The notes below the pieces were generated by a model. That model did not search any database and had not been told where the DNA came from. It was given only the letters and a program-made list of their open reading frames with translations. Source: a virus. From it: DNA of 64,000 bases. Both the position numbers and the translations under genes were made by a program. The DNA is taken from the UHGV virus genome UHGV-0211740; one strand, 5' to 3'. Below, in pieces: positions 11,059 to 29,300 of this stretch. The first letter of the stretch is position 1; every line of letters begins with the position of its first letter.

Positions 11059-11649
11059 ATGTTTTTATGGGAAAGGCCTAGATACCTTCCAGATATTAGA
11101 TTAGAGTTGCTGGCAGATATTGTCACGTTTAAAAGCCCGTTTACAGGTAAAACGCAAAAAGTAACCTATGCCACACCTAACTGGAAAGGCACTTTGACGG
11201 TTTCCAATATTAGCGAATCGCAGTTGCTTGAGCTCAAGAGTTTTGTTGACCAAGTTTACAAAGATGGGAATATCTTTCTTATCAAAACTTATGGTCATTC
11301 GGTGACAGCCAATGAGCCAATCGCTCTCGGACCGACTGGTAACGACGATTTTTTGAAGACGGTTGGTTGGGAGCCGAACAGGGATATAGCCAGAGCTGGG
11401 GATAAGATATCTGTTAATGATGAGTTGAAAGTGGTAACAGCTCCAGTACGTAGTGATGGTGTTGGGGCCGCTGTTATAAACATATCTCCAAGACTTAGGA
11501 AACCTATTGCAGCAGGGGATACTATGAAGATAATAACTCAATCCCCGAAGGGTAGGTTTCATATCAGAGATATTTATAAAATTAAGCAAAAAGTTGATGC
11601 TATGCAAAAAGGCGATAATATAGTTATCAATTTCTTTGAGGATTTCTAA
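11059..11649 (+). CDS. tail tip module protein (distal tail/minor tail-like, tentative)
   Basis: GGAGG RBS; first of three small genes before the J-like gene. Confidence 0.5.
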   Translation: MFLWERPRYLPDIRLELLADIVTFKSPFTGKTQKVTYATPNWKGTLTVSNISESQLLELKSFVDQVYKDGNIFLIKTYGHSVTANEPIALGPTGNDDFLKTVGWEPNRDIARAGDKISVNDELKVVTAPVRSDGVGAAVINISPRLRKPIAAGDTMKIITQSPKGRFHIRDIYKIKQKVDAMQKGDNIVINFFEDF

Positions 11650-18382: not shown

Positions 18383-19069
18383 ATGGCAGAGATTAAGTCG
18401 GATGTCAACCACATCCACACTCTGCCAGATTTTGTTCAGGGAGGTCTTGACTACCTGCCTGGAGATTTTCTGGCTGAGAAGGTTAATTTGGTCACATTCT
18501 TAACCGTGTACCTTAAAAGGTTGGAGGATGTTGATAAGATGCTGGTAGGTTTGGCTGAAGGAAGATTGCTTAACAATGCCAGCGGAAGATACCTTGACGA
18601 GGTAGGAAATCAGCTTGGCATTCTTAGGAACGGGCTTTCAGATGCCGATTTTCGTGCCACACTAATTATTCAGCAGGCAGCATCCTCAAGGGGTGGGACT
18701 AGAGAAGATGTCATCTCCACTTTGCGACAATTGTTCGGAAGAAATAATTTCGATACGTGGAAAGGTGACAACTTCAGGTTTGACATAAATATTAGAAAAA
18801 CTTGCTTTGATATACTGCAGTCTATCGATCAGATCTTAGATATGCTACCGCTGCCTTGCCATTTGCGGCTTACAGAGTCGCAGGGGCAAGCTTTTGGCTT
18901 TGAAGGGGACTCAACAGCTCTCGGTTTCGGATCAGTGTGGGAAGAAAACCAGTTCGGAGTTGGTGGATTGGCTACTTTATTGTACGTTCCTGACGTAAGA
19001 CCTGATTGGGACACCACAACCATTTATTGTGAAAGTATTACAGTGAACGCAACTAGACAGGAGGGTTAA
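18383..19069 (+). CDS. hypothetical structural protein
   Basis: ORF track; operon context. Confidence 0.5.
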   Translation: MAEIKSDVNHIHTLPDFVQGGLDYLPGDFLAEKVNLVTFLTVYLKRLEDVDKMLVGLAEGRLLNNASGRYLDEVGNQLGILRNGLSDADFRATLIIQQAASSRGGTREDVISTLRQLFGRNNFDTWKGDNFRFDINIRKTCFDILQSIDQILDMLPLPCHLRLTESQGQAFGFEGDSTALGFGSVWEENQFGVGGLATLLYVPDVRPDWDTTTIYCESITVNATRQEG

Positions 19070-21141
19070 TGGCAACAGCTATTTTTAAACCTTACCGTGA
19101 TTACTCTACAATGGCTGCACGGTTTCATTACCGCACAGTTCAGGATACTGCCGTTCCAGGTAGGGATTATGATCATGTTGAGGGAGATGTAACTATTCCG
19201 GTTGGAGCAACCAGCATTGAGATCCCAGTAGAAATTGTTGACAAATTGCCCAACAGGTTGCCAAGAAGCTTCTTCATGGAGTTTTCATCAGAGTCTCAAG
19301 GGGTGATGATCGGGACGCAAAAAGCAAAATGCACAATAGTCTCGGATGAGAATCTTGACAGATTATCCTGGGATACTGTTGAGGAGAGAATGTTCCACCC
19401 AAGGTATTGGGTTACAACCACTCAACAAACTGAAAGTACCTGTATTGTTGCAGATAACAACTGTTGTATTAACCGTTTGGTGTCAAGAACGTATGGGGGT
19501 ATGGCAGGTTGCATTTGGGAAACAGTTGACAAGTATGACCATTTCGGTATTGGATTTGATGATCATTATGAAATGAGAAACACCAAGCTTTGGTTCAGAA
19601 TGTCAATAAACAACGCCACCAACTTCTCCACCCCTGAAAAGATGATTATGACTGTGGACCTTGTTGATGGCACAATCATCTATGTTCCTTTAGCTCAATA
19701 TGCCGCCAGCATTTCAGAAGATAAAAATGTTGCAGAGATTCATATTGACTTTGAGGATTGCATTGGGATGGACCAGCACAACAACATGATGGGTGTTGAT
19801 CCTCGGCAGGTGAGAAGGATTCTAATTCCGCTTATGCCTAAAGATTGGGTAAGCAACAGCACAGACCCAAGGACGGAAAATGTAGAGTGCGAGTTGCGCC
19901 TAGACCTGCTTCAGCCAGACACAGGCTGGAAAATGATGCAACTTAACAATATTCAGGTGAAAGAGCACGACGTCGGGATCTGCACTGCATATGATGATAT
20001 GTGGAACGTATCACCTTTGAGAGTGTTGAACAATATTAAGCGTTTGGGCTACACGGGGATCATAAATCACTATGTTGGGATGAGTCATTACTATGACTAC
20101 ACGTGGACTGGTACTCAATGGTCTATAAACAAAACAGGGGCCTTGAACGCAGCAGCTTATAAATGGCATGATGACTTTATGTATAATGCCAAACAGCATG
20201 GCTTCGAGGTTATGCAATCTGTAAGTTTTGAGCTTTACAGTGATGCCTGCCCGTTAGAATGGACCCAAAGAGATTGGAATGATAACTATGCTAAAACAGG
20301 GTACACCCCTTGCAGCTACCTTCTATCTCCGACCATTGAAGAGGGTATGAATTTCCTTACGGCAGTGTTTAAGAATTTTGCATCGGCAGCTATGCGAAAC
20401 AATCTGCCAGTGATTATGCAGATCGGGGAGCCGTGGTGGTGGTTCAACACCGACACTCGTAAACCTTGTATTTATGATTATCCTACAAAACAAGCGTTTT
20501 ATGACGAGACTGGAGAATATGCGCTAGATATTGGAACTATTGACGATCCTAAAACTGGCGGGGTTTACGACAAGTATGTAGCATTTTGTCGTGGCAAGCT
20601 CGGAGCTCGTATTGCAGCCATTTCAAAAGCAATCAAGGCACACGCTGCATCGGCTCAGATGACAGCTTTGCTGTTTTTCCCAACCATTATGGAAACCGAG
20701 CTTACGCAGAAACTGAACCTTGCTGACCAATATAAAAAGGAAGCAGGAGCTCTTGATTTCTTCTGCACTGAGTGCTACGATTGGGTGATGCAGGGCGGTA
20801 TTGAAAAGGCAAAAGAGTCTGTAAACATACCTATCGTTAAGTTAGGTTGGCAACCGTCTGAAATACAATACCTTGCAGGGTTCGTTCCTAGTAAAGAGCT
20901 TGCTCCGGTATATGGCTACGACCCAACCAGGAATTACCAAGAATTTTTATGGAGATGTATTTGCGGAAACATGGCAACCATAGAGTATAGATACCCTGAG
21001 GTAAAACAGTATGTGTGGGCATACCCACAAGTGATGTCTGATAGTATTACTGTTACTGCCAGGGAGTCTACTGTGCTTCATATGGGGCAGGTTGCTCTGA
21101 AAGGGTATGTAGAAGATGTTGTTCCGCCAGACTTCTCATAA
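19069..21141 (+). CDS. hypothetical large structural protein
   Basis: ORF track; AGGAGGG RBS; start overlaps upstream stop. Confidence 0.5.
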   Translation: MATAIFKPYRDYSTMAARFHYRTVQDTAVPGRDYDHVEGDVTIPVGATSIEIPVEIVDKLPNRLPRSFFMEFSSESQGVMIGTQKAKCTIVSDENLDRLSWDTVEERMFHPRYWVTTTQQTESTCIVADNNCCINRLVSRTYGGMAGCIWETVDKYDHFGIGFDDHYEMRNTKLWFRMSINNATNFSTPEKMIMTVDLVDGTIIYVPLAQYAASISEDKNVAEIHIDFEDCIGMDQHNNMMGVDPRQVRRILIPLMPKDWVSNSTDPRTENVECELRLDLLQPDTGWKMMQLNNIQVKEHDVGICTAYDDMWNVSPLRVLNNIKRLGYTGIINHYVGMSHYYDYTWTGTQWSINKTGALNAAAYKWHDDFMYNAKQHGFEVMQSVSFELYSDACPLEWTQRDWNDNYAKTGYTPCSYLLSPTIEEGMNFLTAVFKNFASAAMRNNLPVIMQIGEPWWWFNTDTRKPCIYDYPTKQAFYDETGEYALDIGTIDDPKTGGVYDKYVAFCRGKLGARIAAISKAIKAHAASAQMTALLFFPTIMETELTQKLNLADQYKKEAGALDFFCTECYDWVMQGGIEKAKESVNIPIVKLGWQPSEIQYLAGFVPSKELAPVYGYDPTRNYQEFLWRCICGNMATIEYRYPEVKQYVWAYPQVMSDSITVTARESTVLHMGQVALKGYVEDVVPPDFS

Positions 21142-21153
21142 TCAGGAGATAAA

Positions 21154-22194
21154 ATGTCAAAACCTAGTTTTCCATTAGAGATTTGGGCAGAGGAGGATCA
21201 GGTTCTGCCTAACACCCACAGACAGAACAGGCTGCGCCCGATTGATGATTTGTGGAGAAAAGGTTGGGATCTTGGTCAAAAGCCCTCATGTGAAGAGCTT
21301 AACTATATTTTTAATATGCTTGGAACTTGGGCAAAATATATTGCTGACGAGCAGATCCCCGCTCAAGAAGGTCGCTATCTGGTACGGGATAATAACTTGA
21401 GCGATCTTTTGAACATCCCTGTTGCCCGTAAAAACCTTGGGATTATTACTAAGGAAGAGGCAGATGCCCGGTATGTAAAAGTTACAGGGGATACAATGAC
21501 AGGCCCTTTAGGTCTGCAACGTATCAACTTTAAAGCTGCCGAGACGGACAAGGCTTGGATAGAGACAACCATTGGTCCAGACAAGACAACTCTTGATTTT
21601 GGTTTGAGTGACAATACAGGGTCGTTCGATGATGGTGGAACATCTACAGTAGACGCATTCCGCTGGAGATTTCAACCAACTCAGCCGGACATTAACCCTG
21701 AGTTTACCTTGATGTACCTGAATGCCATCACAGCTAACCGTGCACTGCTGAAAGTGATAGGTAATGTTGAAATTGTAGACAACATGAGGTGCAATAACCT
21801 TACCATTACCAGCACAGCAACATTCACCAACTGCAATGTGGGAAGCCAGTTAACTACAGGGTCACTGTATGTCAATGGAGGCACCAGCTGCGATAGTTTG
21901 GTTGTGAGAAGTCAGCACTGTGTTGTTGGTAACCGAAATGTGGTCCGCTCTGTGAACGGTGTAACCGCCAACGGCAACGGCGATGTGACGATCACTATTC
22001 CGCAAACAGGTGTGCAAGACATCAGAATTGGTGCAAGACTTGTTGACGGTGTTTCTGAATCTCCAGTCCGCAATGGCTACGTTGTCACAGGATGGCATTT
22101 TGGTGATAAAAAAGAAATGCGTGGTTCAACTTACTGGGCAGGACCTTTACAAAAACTTGTAAACGGTCAATGGATCACTGTTAATTATGCGTAG
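21154..22194 (+). CDS. tail fibre / receptor-binding protein, paralog A
   Basis: AGGAGA RBS; N-terminus and C-terminal 14 aa (QKLVNGQWITVNYA) shared with 23209 gene; followed by Tfa-like chaperone. Confidence 0.6.
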   Translation: MSKPSFPLEIWAEEDQVLPNTHRQNRLRPIDDLWRKGWDLGQKPSCEELNYIFNMLGTWAKYIADEQIPAQEGRYLVRDNNLSDLLNIPVARKNLGIITKEEADARYVKVTGDTMTGPLGLQRINFKAAETDKAWIETTIGPDKTTLDFGLSDNTGSFDDGGTSTVDAFRWRFQPTQPDINPEFTLMYLNAITANRALLKVIGNVEIVDNMRCNNLTITSTATFTNCNVGSQLTTGSLYVNGGTSCDSLVVRSQHCVVGNRNVVRSVNGVTANGNGDVTITIPQTGVQDIRIGARLVDGVSESPVRNGYVVTGWHFGDKKEMRGSTYWAGPLQKLVNGQWITVNYA

Positions 22195-22208
22195 ATCGGA
22201 GGACTAGC

Positions 22209-22793
22209 ATGAAAATACTTCAAGAGTTTAAGCTTTACCAGCCAGGATCTGGCGAATACTCCGCCAATGAGGAAACCAAAGAGTTGACCCCTCAAGAGGT
22301 TGAGGATTACACTGCATACACAGGGTATTTTTTACGTAATGATGATGGAGATTGGTATGTGCAGTCCAGAACATTACGACAAGAAAACCCAGGGTGTATC
22401 TTCCTACTTGTTGACGAGAAGGGTATTCTTAAGACATCTACAGAAGAGCCTGATGCCTTATGGCCTGCTCCAGGTCTTCGTGTGGTTATCGCCAAAAAAG
22501 AAGAGGTACCAGAAAACATTATGCTCCACCACGACGCTTTGCGTTTAGTTGGTGATGAATTTGTCACAGATAATGAATTCTTTGTTCAACAGGCAGAGGG
22601 TGTCATAGAGACAGAACTTGCTTGGGCTACTGCTAGAATTGGTGCCTATCAAGACATGATTGACCTTGAATATGATCTTACTGATGACCAAAAACGCAAC
22701 ATCAGAGATTTGAAAATGTACAGGGTAAAACTTCTTGAAATAGATACATCTAAAGCCCCTGACATTTTCTTCCCGGAACGACCTACCCTCTAA
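22209..22793 (+). CDS. tail fibre assembly chaperone (Tfa/Caudo_TAP-like)
   Basis: C-terminal W..YR..LL..D...APDIFFPERP motif; immediately downstream of a fibre gene. Confidence 0.55.
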   Translation: MKILQEFKLYQPGSGEYSANEETKELTPQEVEDYTAYTGYFLRNDDGDWYVQSRTLRQENPGCIFLLVDEKGILKTSTEEPDALWPAPGLRVVIAKKEEVPENIMLHHDALRLVGDEFVTDNEFFVQQAEGVIETELAWATARIGAYQDMIDLEYDLTDDQKRNIRDLKMYRVKLLEIDTSKAPDIFFPERPTL

Positions 22794-22804
22794 GAGGAGG
22801 TGTT

Positions 22805-23119
22805 GTGGAGTTGGATTTGGCGGCGTTGTACGGTATCTGCATGGGTACCGTTGTCCCGATCTGTGTATGGGCTTTCAACCAGTGGCACACCAAATGGAAA
22901 GGTATTTCCAAGAGGTTGGATGAGCTGGAGAAAGACCTCATCCTAGTGAAAAATAGCATGGTTACAAAAGATAGACTTGATTCCATTATCGAGACCCGGT
23001 TAAGTAAGCTAGAGGCCGATATTAACGACCTTAAGCAAGATGTCAGAACAGATGTCTCCGGTATCCGAGCTGACGTGCAAAAGATTTTGCACATGCTTGT
23101 AGAGCATAGTAAAAGGTAA
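22805..23119 (+). CDS. membrane-anchored coiled-coil protein (possible i-spanin-like or assembly factor)
   Basis: GTG start after GAGGAGG; N-terminal hydrophobic helix then charged coiled coil. Confidence 0.4.
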   Translation: MELDLAALYGICMGTVVPICVWAFNQWHTKWKGISKRLDELEKDLILVKNSMVTKDRLDSIIETRLSKLEADINDLKQDVRTDVSGIRADVQKILHMLVEHSKR

Positions 23120-23129
23120 ACAAAGGTCA

Positions 23130-23160
23130 GGACGGAAAGGACTCCGTTCTTGCATTTTGT
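23130..23160 (+). terminator. hairpin plus T-rich tract, weak terminator
   Basis: GGACGG-loop-CCGTTC then TTGCATTTTGT. Confidence 0.35.
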
Positions 23161-23178
23161 TCTCTAAAGTGTTAAAAT
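23150..23178 (+). promoter_or_regulatory. sigma70-like promoter TTGCAT-17-TAAAAT
   Basis: Read directly upstream of the second fibre paralog. Confidence 0.45.
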
Positions 23179-23208
23179 AGTCCTAAGGAATTTTCTCAGG
23201 AGAACGTG

Positions 23209-24252
23209 ATGGCTAAACCAGTTATCCCTCTTGATATTTGGGCCAATCAGGATGTTGTGCTTGAAAATACAGGAGAGTTGAATAAGTCTCAACCAAAAAA
23301 AGAAGAGAGACTGAAAGGTTGGGATATGACACAAAGGGTGGCATGTGAAGTTGTTAACTTTGAACTTCACATGCTCTCTGCGTGGTTAAGACATTTAACA
23401 GAAGATGTTATTCCAGGGTGGGATAATAGATTTTTAAGGGTTACCAATAATCTAGCAGACGTTCCAGACAAAGCTGCTGCACGCCAAGTCCTCAATGTAT
23501 ACTCCCCTGAAGAAATGGACGACCTATATGTTGACAAATCTGGGGACACAATGACCCAAACTCAAACTTTAGGTCTTCAAAGAATACAGTTCGCATCTGC
23601 GTCCACAGATAGTGCGGCAATATATACCACTATAACTCCAGACAAGACGCTGATGGATTTCTGGATTATGGACAATATTGGTGGTGCAGACGGTGCAGAT
23701 CTTGATGATTCTTCTAATCAAATAGATGGGTTTCGTTGGAGATTCCAGCCTTCTGGTGGACAGCCTGTATTTTCTGCCATGAAGCTTAATGCTATAACTG
23801 CCAATCGTGCAAGACTGGCTATTCAGGGGAATCTTGAATGCAACGACGCAAAAAGTTCCTCTGCAAATGCTAATGCGGTCACGATACCAAGAGCTACCGT
23901 CAATGGACAACAATCTTGCGGTAATGCCCAAGTTGGTGGAAGATTGGATTGTAATGATGGAACTGTACGAGGTCAGTATTCGATAGTCGGCGGTAGAAAC
24001 GTGGTTCGTAGGGTGAACGGTAATAGTGCAGACAGCAGCGGTAACCTTACTATTCCTATGCCAAGTAGGGGAGTTGACGATGTAAGGATAGCAAACCGCT
24101 TCAGAACCACCTACAGAGAATCAAGAGTCTACGTAGGACATGTAATGTGTTCTGGTAATTACGCTTACAAACACCCATATCAAGGCGACTATTGGACAGG
24201 TGCTATCCAAAAACTTGTAAACGGTCAATGGATCACTATATCTTATGCTTAA
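23209..24252 (+). CDS. tail fibre / receptor-binding protein, paralog B
   Basis: ORF track 23206..24252; ATG 23209 after AGGAGA; shares conserved N-terminal motifs and C-terminus QKLVNGQWITISYA with paralog A. Confidence 0.6.
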   Translation: MAKPVIPLDIWANQDVVLENTGELNKSQPKKEERLKGWDMTQRVACEVVNFELHMLSAWLRHLTEDVIPGWDNRFLRVTNNLADVPDKAAARQVLNVYSPEEMDDLYVDKSGDTMTQTQTLGLQRIQFASASTDSAAIYTTITPDKTLMDFWIMDNIGGADGADLDDSSNQIDGFRWRFQPSGGQPVFSAMKLNAITANRARLAIQGNLECNDAKSSSANANAVTIPRATVNGQQSCGNAQVGGRLDCNDGTVRGQYSIVGGRNVVRRVNGNSADSSGNLTIPMPSRGVDDVRIANRFRTTYRESRVYVGHVMCSGNYAYKHPYQGDYWTGAIQKLVNGQWITISYA

Positions 24253-24263
24253 AAAGAGGGTAA

Positions 24264-24530
24264 ATGAAACTAACTCAGTTTTTATGGGGACTGGTTGCGG
24301 CATCTGATGACCCTACAAAAGTGTCCCAATCTAAGCTATGGTCGAACATCGGCATGGCAGTGATGACTGGGGTGTTTATTCACATGGGGTACAATGATAC
24401 ACTTCCTGAATGGTATGCGTGGATATACGCACCATCGGTAGCCTGTCCCCAGCTTATTAGCAAATTCATCTCGCTCCGGTGGGGTTGCCAGCACCCTGAC
24501 CACGTTAAAAGCGAAGAGCAAAAAGCTTAA
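24264..24530 (+). CDS. small protein with hydrophobic segments
   Basis: ORF track; AGAGGG RBS; function unknown. Confidence 0.4.
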   Translation: MKLTQFLWGLVAASDDPTKVSQSKLWSNIGMAVMTGVFIHMGYNDTLPEWYAWIYAPSVACPQLISKFISLRWGCQHPDHVKSEEQKA

Positions 24531-24539
24531 GGAGAAATC

Positions 24540-26285
24540 ATGGCGCAAGACATGACAAGCTTCGAGCAGGCGGTAGATCAAGTAATTGTGGATTCTGAAC
24601 GTCTGCACTTGGTTGTCAACGGTAACGCTGTGGATGAAGTTGTCGTAGAGGATGGTACCACCATCCCTACGGTACGGAAAGCCATGCTTGACAACCTTTA
24701 TTTTAAAACGCCACCGATTCCTTGGGCGTACGGGGCATCCACAACAGTTTTTAACCAACTTTATGAGTTTAAAGGTGACACAGGTCCTCAGTGGTGGTAC
24801 GCGCCTGCGGCATCAAAAGCTAATCCGGTTAGAATGCCAGCAGACCCTTCACAATCTGCAAACTGGAGATTGTATACCGACTCTGCAGTAATGGCAAAGT
24901 ACTATGCAAAACTTAACAGCCCGAGGTTTGAAGGTGACCCGCGAGTACCTACACCTCCAATGGATGATAAGTCAGAGTCTATAGCAAACACGGAGTTTGT
25001 TGTTGACTACGTGGATAGTATATTTGAAGCTATGGAGGGGATGAAAGTTACCGTAGGTTCTTTGGTGGTAAAAGGTCTTTCAGAGCTTGCCAATACCATA
25101 GTTGGAGGGACTCTTACCTTACAAGGGCCTGTCAACGGAGCAGACTCTACGGCACGCTTCAGAAACCTAATCCTCACGGCAAATACTTCTACACTTACCT
25201 TCGCTTGGAGCGATCCTAAGCATACGGACTGGAAAAGCACAGAACTGCAGCCTCACGAGGTGTCAACGCACAGGGTTATAGCTGACACTATAACATCTGG
25301 AAAACCTGTGGCAAACAACAATGATGTGCATTTTAATGGTCTTGGAAACAACTTCTTTGACTATGTGTATATCCGTGGTAATGCCATGAAGGCGGCGACC
25401 GAACCAACACTGCAGGTTGATGGTATCACCAGGGTTAAAAACCTGGAAGTGACAGGCACTGTTACAGGGATAACCTACTCTGTTGATGGCACCATGATTT
25501 ACCCTAGCTACATCGAAAGCACAGGGGATGCACTGATCAATGGAGATTTAGAGGTTGGCGGGGCAATAGTTATTCGTGGTACAGCCTCTGTGCAGAACTT
25601 GTCCTTAAACACTCTGAGTGTGAACGAGCGTGCCACTTTTGAAGGAGAAGGAATTACAGCCAATAAGGGTGCAATTACCTCCCTGACTGCCACCACTTTA
25701 ACGGCAACAACTGCAAACGCTGAAAACTGCAACGTTAGCAGAAACTTGCAAGTTAATGGGGATGTGAGTTTGAACGCAGCAGGGACTGGAACTACCTACC
25801 TCCACAACCTTGAAATATCAGGTGCCGTCACCGGGTGGTTGCCAGACTTCTCTAATGTTAACTTTGTCTGTAATGGTATCAACTCTAGTGGTAAGATAAC
25901 CACCTCTCAAGGAATTGAGGCTGGTAAAACTATCACTGCCCCTGCTTTCCACGCAGGAAAAGTAGACTTTGACTTAGAAGAGGTTGATGCATCCAGTGGG
26001 ACATGGACACCTAACGGGCAGGCCAATATGTATGTTGTCCACGCAAAAGGTGACTTTACAATAGGTCAGTGGCCTGGAACATCGGCTGAAGATAAACCTT
26101 ACCCGTTCACTGCAATCATCTATGTCATTCAGGATGCTGTAGGTCACAACGTGACTTTACACGATAAGTATGCCATCTTGTCGGCAACGCCTGTTATTAA
26201 CAACAAGGCCAACAGCGTCACCTTACTACAATTGACATATTGTGGTGTTGGTGATATTGTGGATGTGGTTATTGCACAACGTTAA
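24540..26285 (+). CDS. tail fibre protein
   Basis: AAGGAG RBS; N-terminal region ending SIANTEFV as in long tail fibre proximal domains; Gly/Thr-rich body. Confidence 0.6.
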   Translation: MAQDMTSFEQAVDQVIVDSERLHLVVNGNAVDEVVVEDGTTIPTVRKAMLDNLYFKTPPIPWAYGASTTVFNQLYEFKGDTGPQWWYAPAASKANPVRMPADPSQSANWRLYTDSAVMAKYYAKLNSPRFEGDPRVPTPPMDDKSESIANTEFVVDYVDSIFEAMEGMKVTVGSLVVKGLSELANTIVGGTLTLQGPVNGADSTARFRNLILTANTSTLTFAWSDPKHTDWKSTELQPHEVSTHRVIADTITSGKPVANNNDVHFNGLGNNFFDYVYIRGNAMKAATEPTLQVDGITRVKNLEVTGTVTGITYSVDGTMIYPSYIESTGDALINGDLEVGGAIVIRGTASVQNLSLNTLSVNERATFEGEGITANKGAITSLTATTLTATTANAENCNVSRNLQVNGDVSLNAAGTGTTYLHNLEISGAVTGWLPDFSNVNFVCNGINSSGKITTSQGIEAGKTITAPAFHAGKVDFDLEEVDASSGTWTPNGQANMYVVHAKGDFTIGQWPGTSAEDKPYPFTAIIYVIQDAVGHNVTLHDKYAILSATPVINNKANSVTLLQLTYCGVGDIVDVVIAQR

Positions 26286-26293
26286 TATATCTG

Positions 26294-26320
26294 ACCGCTC
26301 CTGACGGGGCGGTTTTCTTA
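26294..26320 (+). terminator. rho-independent terminator
   Basis: 8-bp stem with TGAC loop then TTTTCTT. Confidence 0.55.
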
Positions 26321-26333
26321 TCTGGAGAACACA

Positions 26334-29300
26334 ATGCTTCCAATCCCTTTGCTAAAACTTGGTCGTCATTTCCTCGATAAGAGGGGTGGAGTTAAGGAAC
26401 TTGCTGTTCTGTCATACCCAATAGACAACAGTGACGGTACAAGCACTACAGTAGCCTATGTAAATAGCTTAGCTATACTTTTTGATAACGGTCAACTCAA
26501 TATTACAGGTTACAACAGGTTCGGGGAGTGCAGGACTGGAGATCTTGACACGATAAACTACCCAAATGAGGCTGCCTGGAACGTTGACCATGTGTGGAGA
26601 GCAGACCGTGCGTTTGTGATCCGAACTTTTGATAATCAGTTTTTCTACATCGGCTGCACTGCAGGGCTTATTGGGTCTGATGCTGCAGGTGGTAATGATG
26701 TTTGTGTAAGGGAGTGGACACCTCTTCCTGAACAGATTGTTAAAGGATTGCACCTTGACACCCACCCAGAGCGCCTTGTTGAGGTGATGGGCGGTATTAA
26801 CAACACCGTCTGGGTTATGGCAGAGGCAGAAGGCACTGGCATTTTACACCTGTACGGATCTGGTAACAACACCTACGGATCTTTGCATGTGGATAAAAAC
26901 CAGCATGCAACCCCTGTAAAGATTGGTGAAACATCGGAAAATCCTGAAACAGGTCCTTGGAAAAACCCAAGCATCAACTGTGAGGTGCATGATAACTCTG
27001 TTATTTTCGGCGGTCCTAGAGGTTTCTGGATTGCGGGATACGACTTTCTGAGAAACAACAGCAGAAACGACCTTGTTTGGCCTCCTGCTCAGATTACCCG
27101 TGACGATTTGAGAGGTATTCCTGCAGATGAGGAGTGGAAAGGGTTCATGTGCGGTCCGAACGGGGCAGTGGTTGTAACACAAAGAATGCACAGACCTGAT
27201 GACCAGCAACTTGTTAACGTATTCTACGGGCAAAACATCTGGGGAGATGATACATGGCGTTCCTTAAATCTTACCTACACCCATGAAGTAATAATGGCGC
27301 GTGGGTACGGAACAAGCGGCATTTTCTTCAATAATGGCACTAAGCAGTATCGTGGATTCTCTCGCAACTTATGTAATGATATTGGTGCACAGTCTGCAAA
27401 CAATAGCCCTAGGGATAATTTTATCCACTATCAAGCCCTTGCCACAGCTAAATATGTTGAGCAAAGACTGCCAGTCAGCTGGACAGAGAGTGTTTATTTC
27501 CAGGGCATTCACAGAGAGGGTTTTTTAGGGACCTTTACTGTTGTTAATGGTAAACTTTGGTGGTCAGGTATCCCAAGGGGAAGTTTTGCAGGCTCTAATA
27601 ACTTGTTTGGGGGTAGACTTAATAGTCAAGGGTTCACAGAGGTTCCTGAGAATTGGTATAAAAATGTTCCAGTAGACAGTTGGGATATTGAGGATATTTT
27701 TGACGTTAACGGTGTTAGCAGCGTTAGCAATATTTACATTGGTGACACGGTCAAGATGAAATTGAAGCCTCAGCCAGAGGGTGCTACGTTCATTATTGAC
27801 AAGATTGAACTGGTAAATGCTGCAGGCACGGTTGTTACAGATGCAAATTATCAATTCTCCACCAACTGGAACCACGGTGGTGCCAACGAAGTTATTGTTA
27901 CCCAGTATAACAGGAATGTTAACAGACGTGGCCTGTACTCTGTAAAAATAACCTATCATGACAAGCATGGCACAGGTAGAACTCACACGACAAGGACTTT
28001 GAACTGGAACACCATAGTTCCTGCGTATCCGTCTAACGGTAAGTGGCATACTGTCGGTAGAAACAAGCAGTTCCATGTTAACGATACTGTGTACTTTGGG
28101 CTGAATGGTACTCAGCCTGCAGTAGAAGGGGATACATCGTATATGGTCAGACTCCATAGAATGGATGCTGGATCAGTAACTTATGATGTTACCCAAGAGA
28201 TTTATGATCAGCGACGAAATACCTACAATAACTTGGTGCAGACACAGGCCTTATGGGAGTTCAACCCCAACGGCAGAGGTGGTAAAATGTTGCAGGTCAA
28301 CGAACAAAACGGGACATCGTTGACTGTACACGAACATTCAGATCCTTGGCCTGATCCTGGAAAACCTCACCCAGGCGCTCGTACACTAAAAATTGTCAGC
28401 CATGACGTAGGATATTTCGGAATACGCTGGGAAGCTACGGTAAGATATGCCGACGGGACGACAAACAATATTGGGATTACTCTTGGCGGCACCAGTGAGG
28501 ATAACTCGCTGAAAATTGCCTACACACCCAGAGGCATCTCTATTGACAATATGGATGTTGTTCGCAATGGTTACGGAGATGTAAACATCAAAGTTACTCT
28601 TGGTGAGCATCTCGGCGGAGAGAGGATCATTATGTATGCCTTTGATCATGACCCGCGAACCAACGGAACTTATGCGAATCAGGCCTGGAGTTACCTGATA
28701 AGTGCGCCTGAGCCAAATACTAAAGAATTCTACTACGGTATGAAGCGAGATGTGTGCAAGAAAACAGGAACACATGACTGGATTGCTATCTGCGTTAAAG
28801 ATGAGAGAACAGCTTGGGATGAGCCTGTTAACAGATGGTTCATAGGTATTCCCACTCGAAGTGATAAATACGTTGAAGAATATATTGTGTGCATGGGTGG
28901 CACCAACCTCAATATGTGTTGGAACGAGGATGCAAACAAATACTCTGATTATGACTATATGAGGGACTACTCTTGCAATCAATGGTTTAACCAAACCGGG
29001 TATGCTAATCGGCAGTCAAGAGTAAACCCTGCAATCTTTACAGATACGCAGGTTTTCTTGACAAAACAGGCAAACGAGGTTCAGACCTTCAAGAACAACT
29101 ATGACCCTAACAAGTGGTTCTATAACTGCTATGGGGCATTTTTCTGGGGACCCGGGGAATTACCTGGTGGTGGCTCTTGTTTTGAGGCTGCAACTTACGC
29201 CAGTGACAGATTTATGGGCCAGGTCAAGAAATACAAGATAATTCCAGGGCCTGAAACTTTAGGTAACGCTGTCGACCCCTATATCATCATGAGTGATCTA

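What the first reader, a model, noticed from the sequence alone, without database searches (positions are those of the whole stretch)
21154..24252. Duplicated receptor-binding cassette with conserved ends and its own promoter
Genes 21154..22194 and 23209..24252 have similar N-termini and nearly identical last 14 residues, with about 30 nt of matching DNA (CAAAAACTTGTAAACGGTCAATGGATCACT), but divergent central regions. The first copy is followed by a Tfa-type chaperone. The second has its own hairpin and TTGCAT-17-TAAAAT promoter. Conserved ends with variable centres suggest a host-range exchange module.
Basis: partly seen in the sequence, partly recalled or inferred. Interest (0 to 1): 0.6.

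Follow-up and report, generated by a model that had tools for sequence, protein, structure and literature searches.

The report
Two paralogous rV5-type short tail fibres
The window is from an rV5-like E. coli phage, and the two genes are its already described pair of short tail fibre paralogs with one chaperone gene and a published late promoter, not a swappable host-range cassette; the only new detail is that gene conversion keeps their 3' ends alike.

Summary
The sequence facts hold. Genes 21154-22194 and 23209-24252 are paralogs, the 30-nt exact repeat exists, 22209-22793 is a Caudo_TAP chaperone, and a hairpin plus TTGCAT-17-TAAAAT precedes the second gene. The "divergent centre" does not hold: the proteins align end to end (43% identity, E 3e-94) and residues 106-200 are the most similar part.

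The window is a Vequintavirus, 98% identical to EcoIv14a_Aya and about 91% to rV5. The genes are rV5 gp033, gp032, gp031 and gp030. Kropinski 2013 described the pair and listed promoter P030. Maffei 2021 described "two paralogous short tail fibers plus chaperone" with no allelic variation.

All 117 GenBank relatives keep both genes collinear, at 95% or more (copy 1) and 90% or more (copy 2) protein identity. Against four relatives omega is 0.02-0.06. No central segment is swapped.

The new detail is concerted evolution at the 3' ends. The 30-mer is identical at 9 of 9 degenerate codons (P about 1e-4). A divergent lineage carries its own synonymous variants in both copies. In a deeper lineage about 135 nt of the tip region were homogenised between the copies. 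Gene conversion explains this.

The feature is ordinary and already known, so interest is low.

The parts
21154..22194 (+). Short tail fibre paralog 1 (STF1, ortholog of rV5 gp033), 346 aa
   Evidence: Matches phrog_4465 over its full length, E 1e-170. It is 96.5% identical to rV5 gp033. Residues 1-108 match the phiTE short tail fibre 9cuy (E 1.6e-19) and residues 286-343 match the Mu tail fibre S tip 5yvq (E 3.6e-6). In the tree of residues 1-285 it groups with the single-copy fibres of Avunavirus and Seunavirus.
22209..22793 (+). Tail fibre assembly chaperone (Tfa, rV5 gp032), 194 aa
   Evidence: Pfam Caudo_TAP 45.8 bits against a cutoff of 22.1; phrog_136 E 2.8e-36. The N-terminal half varies between lineages and the C-terminal half is conserved.
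22805..23119 (+). 104-aa protein of unknown function (rV5 gp031); by eye a hydrophobic N-terminus followed by a long charged stretch
   Evidence: phrog_5345, unknown function, E 1e-48; only sub-threshold Pfam hits, mostly to helical or coiled-coil families. It is present after Tfa in all relatives, including the single-copy outgroups.
23129..23150 (+). Conserved hairpin (8 bp stem, 6-nt loop) abutting the -35-like hexamer; terminator-like
   Evidence: Flagged by the terminator scan and present in the MFE fold. Across 8 sequences, 86% of cells pair against 29-55% for slid controls, and 4 of 8 pairs carry compensatory changes. Terminator function is inferred.
23150..23179 (+). Promoter of the second fibre gene (= rV5 P030): TTGCAT, 17 nt, TAAAAT, with TG upstream (extended -10, late motif TGnTAAAATA)
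   Evidence: The same sequence is listed as putative late promoter P030 in Kropinski 2013 Table S4. TTGCATTTT and TGnTAAAATA are invariant while the spacer varies in all lineages, down to those with 47% STF2 identity. The motif occurs 5 times in the window against 1.0 expected; three plus-strand copies end 30-33 nt before start codons. It scores below the sigma-70 scan threshold.
23209..24252 (+). Short tail fibre paralog 2 (STF2, ortholog of rV5 gp030), 347 aa
   Evidence: phrog_4465 E 5.6e-162. It is 94% identical to rV5 gp030. A profile of STF2 homologs matches phiTE STF residues 1-121 at E 9e-15. It forms a separate, faster-evolving clade.
22150..22179 (+). 30-nt exact direct repeat, copy 1 (codons for QKLVNGQWIT at the STF1 C-terminus)
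24208..24237 (+). 30-nt exact direct repeat, copy 2 (same codons at the STF2 C-terminus)
24264..24530 (+). 88-aa membrane protein (rV5 gp029), probably co-transcribed with STF2
   Evidence: phrog_1322, membrane protein, E 5e-32. It starts 11 nt after the STF2 stop codon and is present in the single-copy outgroups too.

Best explanation
This is the short-tail-fibre locus of a Vequintavirus (rV5-like myovirus). STF1 (21154-22194) and STF2 (23209-24252) are old paralogs.

Each has three parts:
- an N-terminal baseplate-docking domain, homologous to the solved N-terminus of the phiTE short tail fibre;
- a shared shaft;
- a C-terminal tip of about 60 residues of the Mu-GpS kind, ending in the family-wide motif (P/A)(L/I)Q-K-L-V-N-G-Q-W-I-T.

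STF1 is the ortholog of the single fibre found in sister genera and is followed by the only Tfa chaperone gene. STF2 is a faster-evolving copy. It sits where sister genera have a 157-aa gene, and it arrived with, or acquired, a hairpin and a late extended -10 promoter. That promoter gives STF2, and probably the downstream genes, transcription independent of the STF1 operon.

Both genes are conserved virion-fibre genes under purifying selection. They probably give the phage two LPS-core specificities, because the tips differ in the loop GWHFGDKKEMRG (STF1) versus SGNYAYKHPYQG (STF2).

The nucleotide identity of the last 30 coding bases is not a cassette boundary. It is a product of intragenomic gene conversion between the paralogs. 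One possible reason it persists is that both tips must be folded by the one Tfa.

Shown: homology, synteny, conservation, concerted evolution, and the promoter and hairpin footprint.

Inferred: virion location of both proteins, LPS-core binding, a shared chaperone, and terminator function of the hairpin.
For: Identity of the locus:
- The region is 98% identical to EcoIv14a_Aya and about 91% to rV5 and over 110 other records, all collinear.
- Annotations in RudolfGeigy and rV5 read short tail fiber, chaperone, hypothetical, short tail fiber.

Paralogy: 43% identity over the full length; both match phrog_4465 end to end.

Domains: phiTE STF N-terminus and Mu S tip; phi92 fibre III gp147 is described as Mu-like and wedge-attached.

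Chaperone: Caudo_TAP.

Conservation: 95% or more and 90% or more protein identity in 117 records; omega 0.02-0.06 against four relatives.

Origin:
- Avunavirus and Seunavirus have the order STF, Tfa, 104 aa, 157 aa, 88 aa, fibre.
- The tree of residues 1-285 puts all STF2 in one clade (bootstrap 100) and STF1 with the single-copy fibres (99).

Promoter and hairpin: published as P030; hexamers invariant with a variable spacer; compensatory stem changes; motif spacing to start codons.

Gene conversion:
- 9 of 9 identical codons, P about 1e-4.
- Lineage L017-L019 has CTG, GTC, AAT and CAG in both copies where the window has CTT, GTA, AAC and CAA.
- In L020/L021 about 135 nt of the tip region are 83-93% identical between copies, the last 60 residues are 85-88% identical, and the bodies are 45% identical.
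- The C-terminal tree groups their STF2 with their own STF1, bootstrap 96.

Literature: Kropinski 2013 gives 42.3% identity and suggests two LPS chemotypes. Maffei 2021 describes two paralogous short tail fibres plus chaperone, homologous to Mu GpS/GpU.
Against: - No experiment assigns a receptor to either fibre.
- The rV5 paper's text says gp30, gp32 and gp33 were found by mass spectrometry. The held Table S5 lists 19 loci; the 18 I read are not 30, 32 or 33, and the 19th carries peptides I did not see in either fibre, so virion presence is weakly documented.
- The STF2 tip has no significant sequence match to Mu S.
- The shared-chaperone idea lacks co-evolution support. In L017 the Tfa N-terminal domain is only 71% identical to the window's, while both tips stay 90-93% identical.
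- A 30-nt island is short for homologous recombination.
- The NJ tree cannot separate an ancient duplication from horizontal acquisition of STF2.
- The sigma-70 scan does not call this promoter (8 of 12 matches), and terminator-like sites are not enriched in the region.
Confidence: 0.85

Rival explanations
1. Host-range exchange cassette. Conserved 5' and 3' ends act as recombination handles, so that central receptor-binding segments are swapped between phages or between the two copies.
For: - dS between the window and rV5 is very uneven along both genes: 0.07-0.15 at the 5' ends and above 1 in the centre. That indicates a recombination history.
- At the inter-genus level, modules are shuffled. 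phi92-like fibres share only residues 1-76 and 287-343. Mydovirus fibres share residues 1-291 but not the tip. Rosemountvirus shares only the tip.
- STF2 diverges much faster than STF1 in deeper lineages, 77% against 89% and 47% against 75%.
Against: - There is no allele replacement in 117 genus members.
- The central divergence is almost all synonymous, dN 0.00-0.09.
- The centre is the most conserved part between the paralogs.
- The 5' ends share no DNA identity beyond 12 nt.
- Maffei 2021 reports no allelic variation.
Confidence: 0.07
2. STF2 is not a duplicate of STF1. It is a xenolog captured from another phage as a moron-like unit (hairpin, promoter, gene) that replaced the 157-aa gene. 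The resemblance at the 3' end was imposed afterwards by conversion.
For: - With midpoint rooting, STF2 branches outside the group formed by STF1 and the single-copy fibres of other genera.
- STF2 comes with its own promoter and an upstream hairpin in an otherwise tightly packed operon.
- It occupies the slot of a different gene in sister genera.
Against: - No donor lineage was found. STF2's closest non-Vequintavirus hits (under 40% identity) are the same single-copy fibres that match STF1 better.
- The long STF2 branches fit accelerated evolution after duplication equally well.
Confidence: 0.25
3. The 30-nt identity is kept by selection on the DNA or RNA itself, for example an RNA structure, a translational-coupling element for the next gene, or a protein-binding site, and not by gene conversion.
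For: Both copies lie 12-15 nt before a stop codon and about 25-30 nt before the next gene's start. The patch is nearly invariant within the rV5 clade.
Against: - The sequence is free to change as long as both copies change together, as in L017-L019.
- In L020/L021 the terminal 30 nt differ between copies at many synonymous sites (19-22 of 30 identical), while an upstream tract is homogenised instead.
- The single-copy outgroups lack the 30-mer; no match within 6 mismatches.
- No Rfam family matches at E up to 1.
- The sequences downstream of the two copies are unrelated.
Confidence: 0.06

Closest known systems
rV5 gp033, gp032, gp031 and gp030 (Kropinski et al. 2013, PMC3606486); 'two paralogous short tail fibers + chaperone' of Vequintavirinae sensu stricto (Maffei et al. 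2021, PMC8594841, S5C/D Fig)
   Same: Same genes, same order and same promoter (P030). Protein identity to the window is 96.5% for gp033, 98.5% for gp032, 97% for gp031 and 94% for gp030.
   Different: Only lineage-level sequence differences. The window belongs to the EcoIv14a_Aya sub-lineage, about 91% DNA identity to rV5. Neither paper's text that I read mentions concerted evolution of the 3' ends.
phi92 fibre III (gp147) and the single short tail fibre of Justusliebigvirus and Phapecoctavirus
   Same: Homologous N-terminal docking segment (residues 1-76, 38%) and C-terminal tip (residues 287-343, 61%), followed by a Tfa. In phi92 it is attached to the wedge protein and described as Mu-like.
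   Different: Single copy, with a different and shorter shaft (327 aa). There is no second paralog and no internal promoter unit.
Phage Mu tail fibre GpS with chaperone GpU (PDB 5yvq), and the Mu G-segment / P1 C-segment inversion switches
   Same: The STF1 tip matches the Mu S tip, E 3.6e-6. A Caudo_TAP chaperone gene lies immediately downstream. Both offer two alternative fibre ends in one genome.
   Different: Mu alternates S/U and S'/U' by Gin-mediated inversion between inverted repeats. Here the two genes are complete, in direct orientation and expressed separately. There is one chaperone gene, no significant inverted repeats, and no recombinase among the nine neighbouring ORFs scanned.
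phiTE (Certrevirus) short tail fibre, PDB 9cuy/9mjn
   Same: The N-terminal approximately 110 residues are homologous (E 1.6e-19 for STF1, 4e-9 for STF2). In phiTE this part forms the joint that docks on the baseplate wedge.
   Different: The phiTE fibre is 554 aa, with a coiled coil and Ig-like domains, and is thought to bind flagella. Only the final strand (PIQKKVNGVWVTI) resembles the C-terminus here.
T4 gp12 short tail fibre
   Same: Functional analogy as an LPS-core-binding baseplate fibre. Kropinski 2013 reported HHpred similarity of gp30 and gp33 to gp12.
   Different: No gp12 chain appears in my PDB sequence searches at E up to 1. The chaperone is also different: Tfa here, gp57A in T4 (own knowledge).

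Membership tests
Vequintavirus short tail fibre paralog pair (rV5 gp033 / gp030) | Orthology by sequence and synteny with rV5 gp033, gp032, gp031 and gp030 | tested here: met
   96.5%, 98.5%, 97% and 94% protein identity in the same order and spacing. The 6-kb region is collinear in 111 of 118 records.
Vequintavirus short tail fibre paralog pair (rV5 gp033 / gp030) | Both proteins are members of one fibre family over their full length | tested here: met
   phrog_4465 covers residues 1-346 and 1-347, E 1e-170 and 6e-162.
Vequintavirus short tail fibre paralog pair (rV5 gp033 / gp030) | Both proteins are present in the virion | not testable with these tools
   Claimed in the text of Kropinski 2013. 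The held MS table lists 19 loci; the 18 I read do not include 30, 32 or 33.
Tfa-dependent, Mu GpS-like fibre | A Caudo_TAP chaperone gene immediately downstream of the fibre gene | tested here: met
   Met for STF1: 22209-22793, 45.8 bits against a cutoff of 22.1. STF2 has no chaperone gene of its own; the next gene is an 88-aa membrane protein that is also present in single-copy relatives.
Tfa-dependent, Mu GpS-like fibre | C-terminal tip homologous to the Mu S tip (5yvq) | tested here: inconclusive
   STF1 residues 286-343 match at E 3.6e-6. STF2 alone and an STF2 profile give no 5yvq hit at E up to 1. STF2 aligns to STF1 across the tip at 45% identity. The AF2 monomer model was too poor for a fold search, pLDDT 37.5.
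Tfa-dependent, Mu GpS-like fibre | Fibre folding or trimerisation requires the chaperone | not testable with these tools
   Needs co-expression or a multimer prediction.
Invertible host-range switch (Mu G segment, P1 C segment; Gin/Cin) | Alternative fibre ends flanked by inverted repeats, with a site-specific invertase nearby | tested here: not met
   The repeat is direct, spaced 2058 nt. Only weak 14-18-nt inverted matches exist. None of the nine ORFs between 16881 and 26285 is a recombinase.
Diversity-generating retroelement targeting a fibre tip | Reverse transcriptase plus a template/variable repeat pair differing at adenines | tested here: not met
   The repeat pair is identical, not adenine-mutated. 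There is no RT among the nine neighbouring ORFs. The rest of the window was not scanned for an RT.
T4 gp12-type short tail fibre | Sequence homology to gp12 | tested here: not met
   No gp12 chain at E up to 1 in three PDB sequence searches. The HHpred similarity is reported only in the literature.
Moron (Hendrix sense) | A gene with its own promoter and terminator, inserted between genes that are adjacent in relatives | tested here: inconclusive
   Own conserved promoter: yes. The hairpin lies upstream of the promoter, not after the gene. In sister genera the slot is not empty; it holds a 157-aa gene.

The most novel reading that the evidence does not exclude
Within each genome, the two fibre paralogs are held in register at their C-terminal tips by recurrent gene conversion, because one Tfa chaperone has to fold both. 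Conversion tracts range from a 30-nt island (rV5 clade) to about 135 nt of the tip region (L020/L021 lineage). The tip is therefore a unit of concerted evolution and the shaft is free to diverge. As a by-product, the 2058-nt direct-repeat unit could be lost or duplicated by recombination, giving rare single-fibre variants.
Probability: 0.3. Interest if true: 0.4.

Novelty: already known. Interest (0 to 1): 0.18.

Why it matters
Very little changes. The locus, the paralogy, the chaperone and the promoter are already in the literature for rV5 and the BASEL phages, and the cassette-swap idea fails on 117 relatives.

The modest added value is evolutionary. Two co-resident fibre genes show clear concerted evolution confined to their tips. 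This is a tidy natural example of intragenomic gene conversion in a lytic phage. It also gives a testable hint that one Tfa chaperone serves two fibres.

For phage engineers, the result says that the last 14 residues, or the last 57 or so in one lineage, can be shared between fibres with different shafts.

Tried and rejected
- AF2 monomer of STF2 with a 14-sequence alignment gave mean pLDDT 37.5 and pTM 0.20, unusable for fold search. No fold search was run.
- The IMG/VR scan with STF2 returned only 4 loci, all 93-95% identical.
- The sigma-70 scan does not list the TTGCAT/TAAAAT pair. Promoter-like and terminator-like counts in 20900-26500 are at chance level (13 against 9.6, 5 against 4.5). 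Promoter support therefore rests on the phylogenetic footprint and the published motif.
- My first hairpin structure string was mis-registered by 2 columns and was corrected.
- A second cluster of same-codon sites at residues about 36-50 (7 of 7) looked like another conversion tract. It consists of two-fold and preferred codons (P 5e-3 before correcting for scanning) and is absent in L017, L020 and L021, so I rejected it as chance.
- An invertible switch and a DGR were considered and rejected.
- No known RNA family matches in 20900-24700.
- A literature search for gene conversion between phage fibre paralogs found nothing specific.
- The held version of PMC13419801 contains only an abstract.
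- The rV5 MS table was read to compare gp30 and gp33 abundance, but neither locus is among the 18 of 19 loci I saw.
- Tfa-tip co-evolution was examined and is not supported in L017.
Full report
**What is in the sequence**

The region holds, on the plus strand:
- a 346-aa ORF at 21154-22194;
- a 194-aa ORF at 22209-22793;
- a 104-aa ORF at 22805-23119;
- an 89-nt spacer;
- a 347-aa ORF at 23209-24252 (ATG; an in-frame GTG at 23206 is too close to the AGGAG site);
- an 88-aa ORF at 24264-24530;
- a 581-aa fibre gene at 24540-26285.

The 30-mer CAAAAACTTGTAAACGGTCAATGGATCACT occurs exactly twice in the window, at 22150 and 24208, in direct orientation. The next longest exact match between the two genes is 12 nt.

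**How similar the two genes are**

BLASTP aligns the two proteins end to end at 43% identity, E 3e-94.

- Residues about 106-200 are the most similar, at 57-67%.
- The first 60 residues are 37-50% identical.
- The weak stretches are about 205-245 and about 291-330, at 20-33%.
- The last 14 residues are 12/14 identical.

**Identity of the locus**

Megablast places the 6-kb region in 118 phage records. It is 98% identical to Vequintavirinae sp. EcoIv14a_Aya and about 91% to rV5, FFH2, FV3, Murica, LL12 and the BASEL Vequintavirus isolates. The region is collinear in 111 of these records.

In rV5 the genes are gp033 (tail fiber), gp032 (tail fiber assembly), gp031, gp030 (tail fiber) and gp029.

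Family matches:
- Both fibres match phrog_4465 over their full length.
- The 194-aa protein matches Pfam Caudo_TAP (45.8 bits, cutoff 22.1) and phrog_136.

Matches to solved structures:
- Both N-termini match the phiTE short tail fibre (9cuy), whose first about 90 residues form the joint docking on the baseplate wedge.
- The STF1 tip (residues 286-343) matches the Mu tail fibre S tip (5yvq, E 3.6e-6).

The phi92 homolog, gp147 or fibre III, is described as Mu-like and wedge-attached.

**What the literature already says**

Kropinski et al. 2013 noted that gp30 and gp33 are 42.3% identical. They suggested that two LPS chemotypes may be recognised.

Their Table S4 lists a putative late promoter P030, TTGTTCTCTAAAGTGTTAAAATAGTCCTAAGGAATTT. 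This is identical to window 23157-23193.

Maffei et al. [quoted passage not shown] They place the terminal receptor in the LPS outer core.

The feature, including its promoter, is therefore already described.

**Test of the cassette idea**

tblastn finds two places per genome in every Vequintavirus record. Copy 1 is 95% or more identical in 116 records. Copy 2 is 90% or more identical in 117. No record carries a replaced allele.

Against rV5 and three other relatives both genes have omega 0.02-0.06. dS is uneven, 0.07-0.15 at the 5' ends and above 1 in the centre. The central DNA divergence is therefore almost all synonymous.

Module shuffling is visible only between genera:
- phi92-like fibres share residues 1-76 and 287-343.
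- Mydovirus fibres share residues 1-291 but not the tip.
- Rosemountvirus fibres share only the tip.

**Origin of the second copy**

Avunavirus Av-05 and a Seunavirus have the order STF, Tfa, 104 aa, 157 aa, 88 aa, fibre, with overlapping genes. Vequintavirus has the spacer plus STF2 where they have the 157-aa gene (phrog_7451, unknown function).

Three deeper two-copy lineages came from Logan assemblies:

| Lineage | STF1 | Tfa | gp031 | STF2 |
|---|---|---|---|---|
| L017-L019 | 89% | 78% | 84% | 77% |
| L020/L021 | 75% | 45% | 50% | 47% |

Percentages are protein identity to the window.

An NJ tree of residues 1-285 puts all STF2 in one clade (bootstrap 100). It puts STF1 with the single-copy fibres (99). 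STF1 is therefore the ancestral ortholog. STF2 is an old, faster-evolving copy, or possibly a captured xenolog.

**The 30-nt repeat**

At the 143 identical, degenerate residues, the two genes use the same codon 38% of the time. That is 34% outside the patch and 9 of 9 inside it (P 6.6e-5). Under the window's own codon usage, P is 1.2e-4.

In relatives the patch co-varies between the copies:
- The AAC/AAT polymorphism agrees between copies in 15 of 17 genomes.
- L017-L019 carry CTG, GTC, AAT and CAG in both copies where the window has CTT, GTA, AAC and CAA.
- In L020/L021 a different tract, about 135 nt of the tip region, is 83-93% identical between copies. There the last 60 residues are 85-88% identical against 45% for the bodies. 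The terminal 30 nt are not homogenised.
- The C-terminal tree groups L020/L021 STF2 with their own STF1, bootstrap 96. This is incongruent with the N-terminal tree.

The single-copy outgroups lack the 30-mer.

This pattern is concerted evolution by intragenomic gene conversion. It is not a fixed DNA element and not a cassette boundary.

The amino-acid motif itself, PLQ-x-x-(V/I)-NG-x-W-(I/V)-T, is family-wide. It is present in Av-05, Seunavirus, phi92-like and phiTE fibres.

**Promoter and hairpin**

The pair TTGCAT, 17 nt, TAAAAT scores only 8 of 12, so the sigma-70 scan does not list it. It does carry TG one base upstream of the -10, which makes it an extended -10. It also fits the rV5 late motif TGnTAAAATA.

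That motif occurs 5 times in the window against 1.0 expected. Three plus-strand copies end 30-33 nt before the start codons at 11059, 16881 and 23209.

Across all lineages, TTGCATTTT and TGnTAAAATA are invariant while the 17-nt spacer changes.

The hairpin at 23129-23150 keeps pairing in 86% of cells, against 29-55% for slid controls. It has compensatory changes at 4 of 8 pairs.

rV5's published list shows other terminator-then-late-promoter pairs: t041/P040, t049/P048 and t052/P051. This unit fits the phage's usual punctuation. Terminator activity is inferred.

**Mechanism**

Shown:
- two conserved paralogous fibres with the same docking domain and different tip loops;
- one Tfa gene;
- separate promoter control of STF2;
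- 3'-end gene conversion.

Inferred:
- Both fibres are mounted on the baseplate and bind LPS-core sugars, with two specificities.
- The single Tfa folds both fibres, which would explain why their tips are kept alike.

Points against the last inference:
- In L017 the Tfa N-terminal domain is only 71% identical to the window's, while both tips stay 90-93% identical.
- The STF2 tip has no detectable match to Mu S.
- The held rV5 MS table lists 19 loci. The 18 I read are not 30, 32 or 33, and the 19th carries peptides I did not see in either fibre.

**Verdict**

The interpretation as an exchange module is not supported. The feature is already known. The only new detail is concerted evolution of the fibre tips.

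Noticed in passing
L004 6949-7422 (Av-05); L005 6997-7470 (Seunavirus NINP13076); corresponds to window 23120-24252: Single-copy relatives carry a 157-aa gene of unknown function (phrog_7451) exactly where Vequintavirus has the hairpin, promoter and STF2. It sits between the conserved 104-aa and 88-aa small proteins. This trio of small proteins embedded in the fibre operon is uncharacterised.
   Followed up: partly
window 22805-23119 and 24264-24530: Two small conserved proteins flank STF2. One is 104 aa and, by eye, has a hydrophobic N-terminus followed by a long charged stretch (phrog_5345, weak XhlA and fibritin-like hits). The other is an 88-aa membrane protein (phrog_1322). Their role in a tail-fibre operon is unknown.
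   Followed up: no
L012 5986-6371 (FFH2, KJ190158.1); corresponds to window about 26285-26334: FFH2 has a gap of about 385 nt between the gp028-like fibre gene and the next gene. The window has 48 nt there, so FFH2 carries an insertion of about 336 nt.
   Followed up: no
L014 3501-4540 (phage V18, KY683736.1): The STF1 ortholog is split in this record, and only residues from about 54 onward are annotated. This is either a frameshift or a sequencing error. If real, STF1 would be dispensable.
   Followed up: no
GenBank MG0656xx records: Sixteen records named 'Campylobacter phage', 15 of them with host C. jejuni, match this rV5-type locus; those listed are about 91% identical. The host label looks wrong, or the phages are E. 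coli phage carry-overs.
   Followed up: no
window 10881, 11019, 16839, 23170 (+ strand): The late-promoter-like motif TGNTAAAATA occurs 5 times against 1.0 expected. Three plus-strand copies end 30-33 nt before the start codons at 11059, 16881 and 23209, which matches rV5 P040, P036 and P030.
   Followed up: partly
window 21154-22194 and 23209-24252 compared with rV5 (L003): dS varies more than ten-fold along both fibre genes: 0.07-0.15 at the 5' ends, 0.9-2 in the centre and 0.3-0.5 at the 3' ends. The Tfa 3' half and gp031 are 98-99% identical. This is a mosaic of coalescence times without protein change.
   Followed up: partly
PMC3606486, main text versus Additional file 5: The text lists gp30, gp32 and gp33 among proteins detected by MS. 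The held supplementary MS table contains 19 loci; the 18 I read are not these three, and the 19th carries peptides I did not see in either fibre.
   Followed up: yes
window 19069-21141: The upstream 690-aa protein matches the Pfam non-contractile tail sheath TIM-barrel (E 5e-80), NCTSP_N and a Calx-beta domain. It is the conserved fibre or sheath-like protein with a deacetylase-type domain that has been linked to ECA or NGR binding in Vequintavirus.
   Followed up: no
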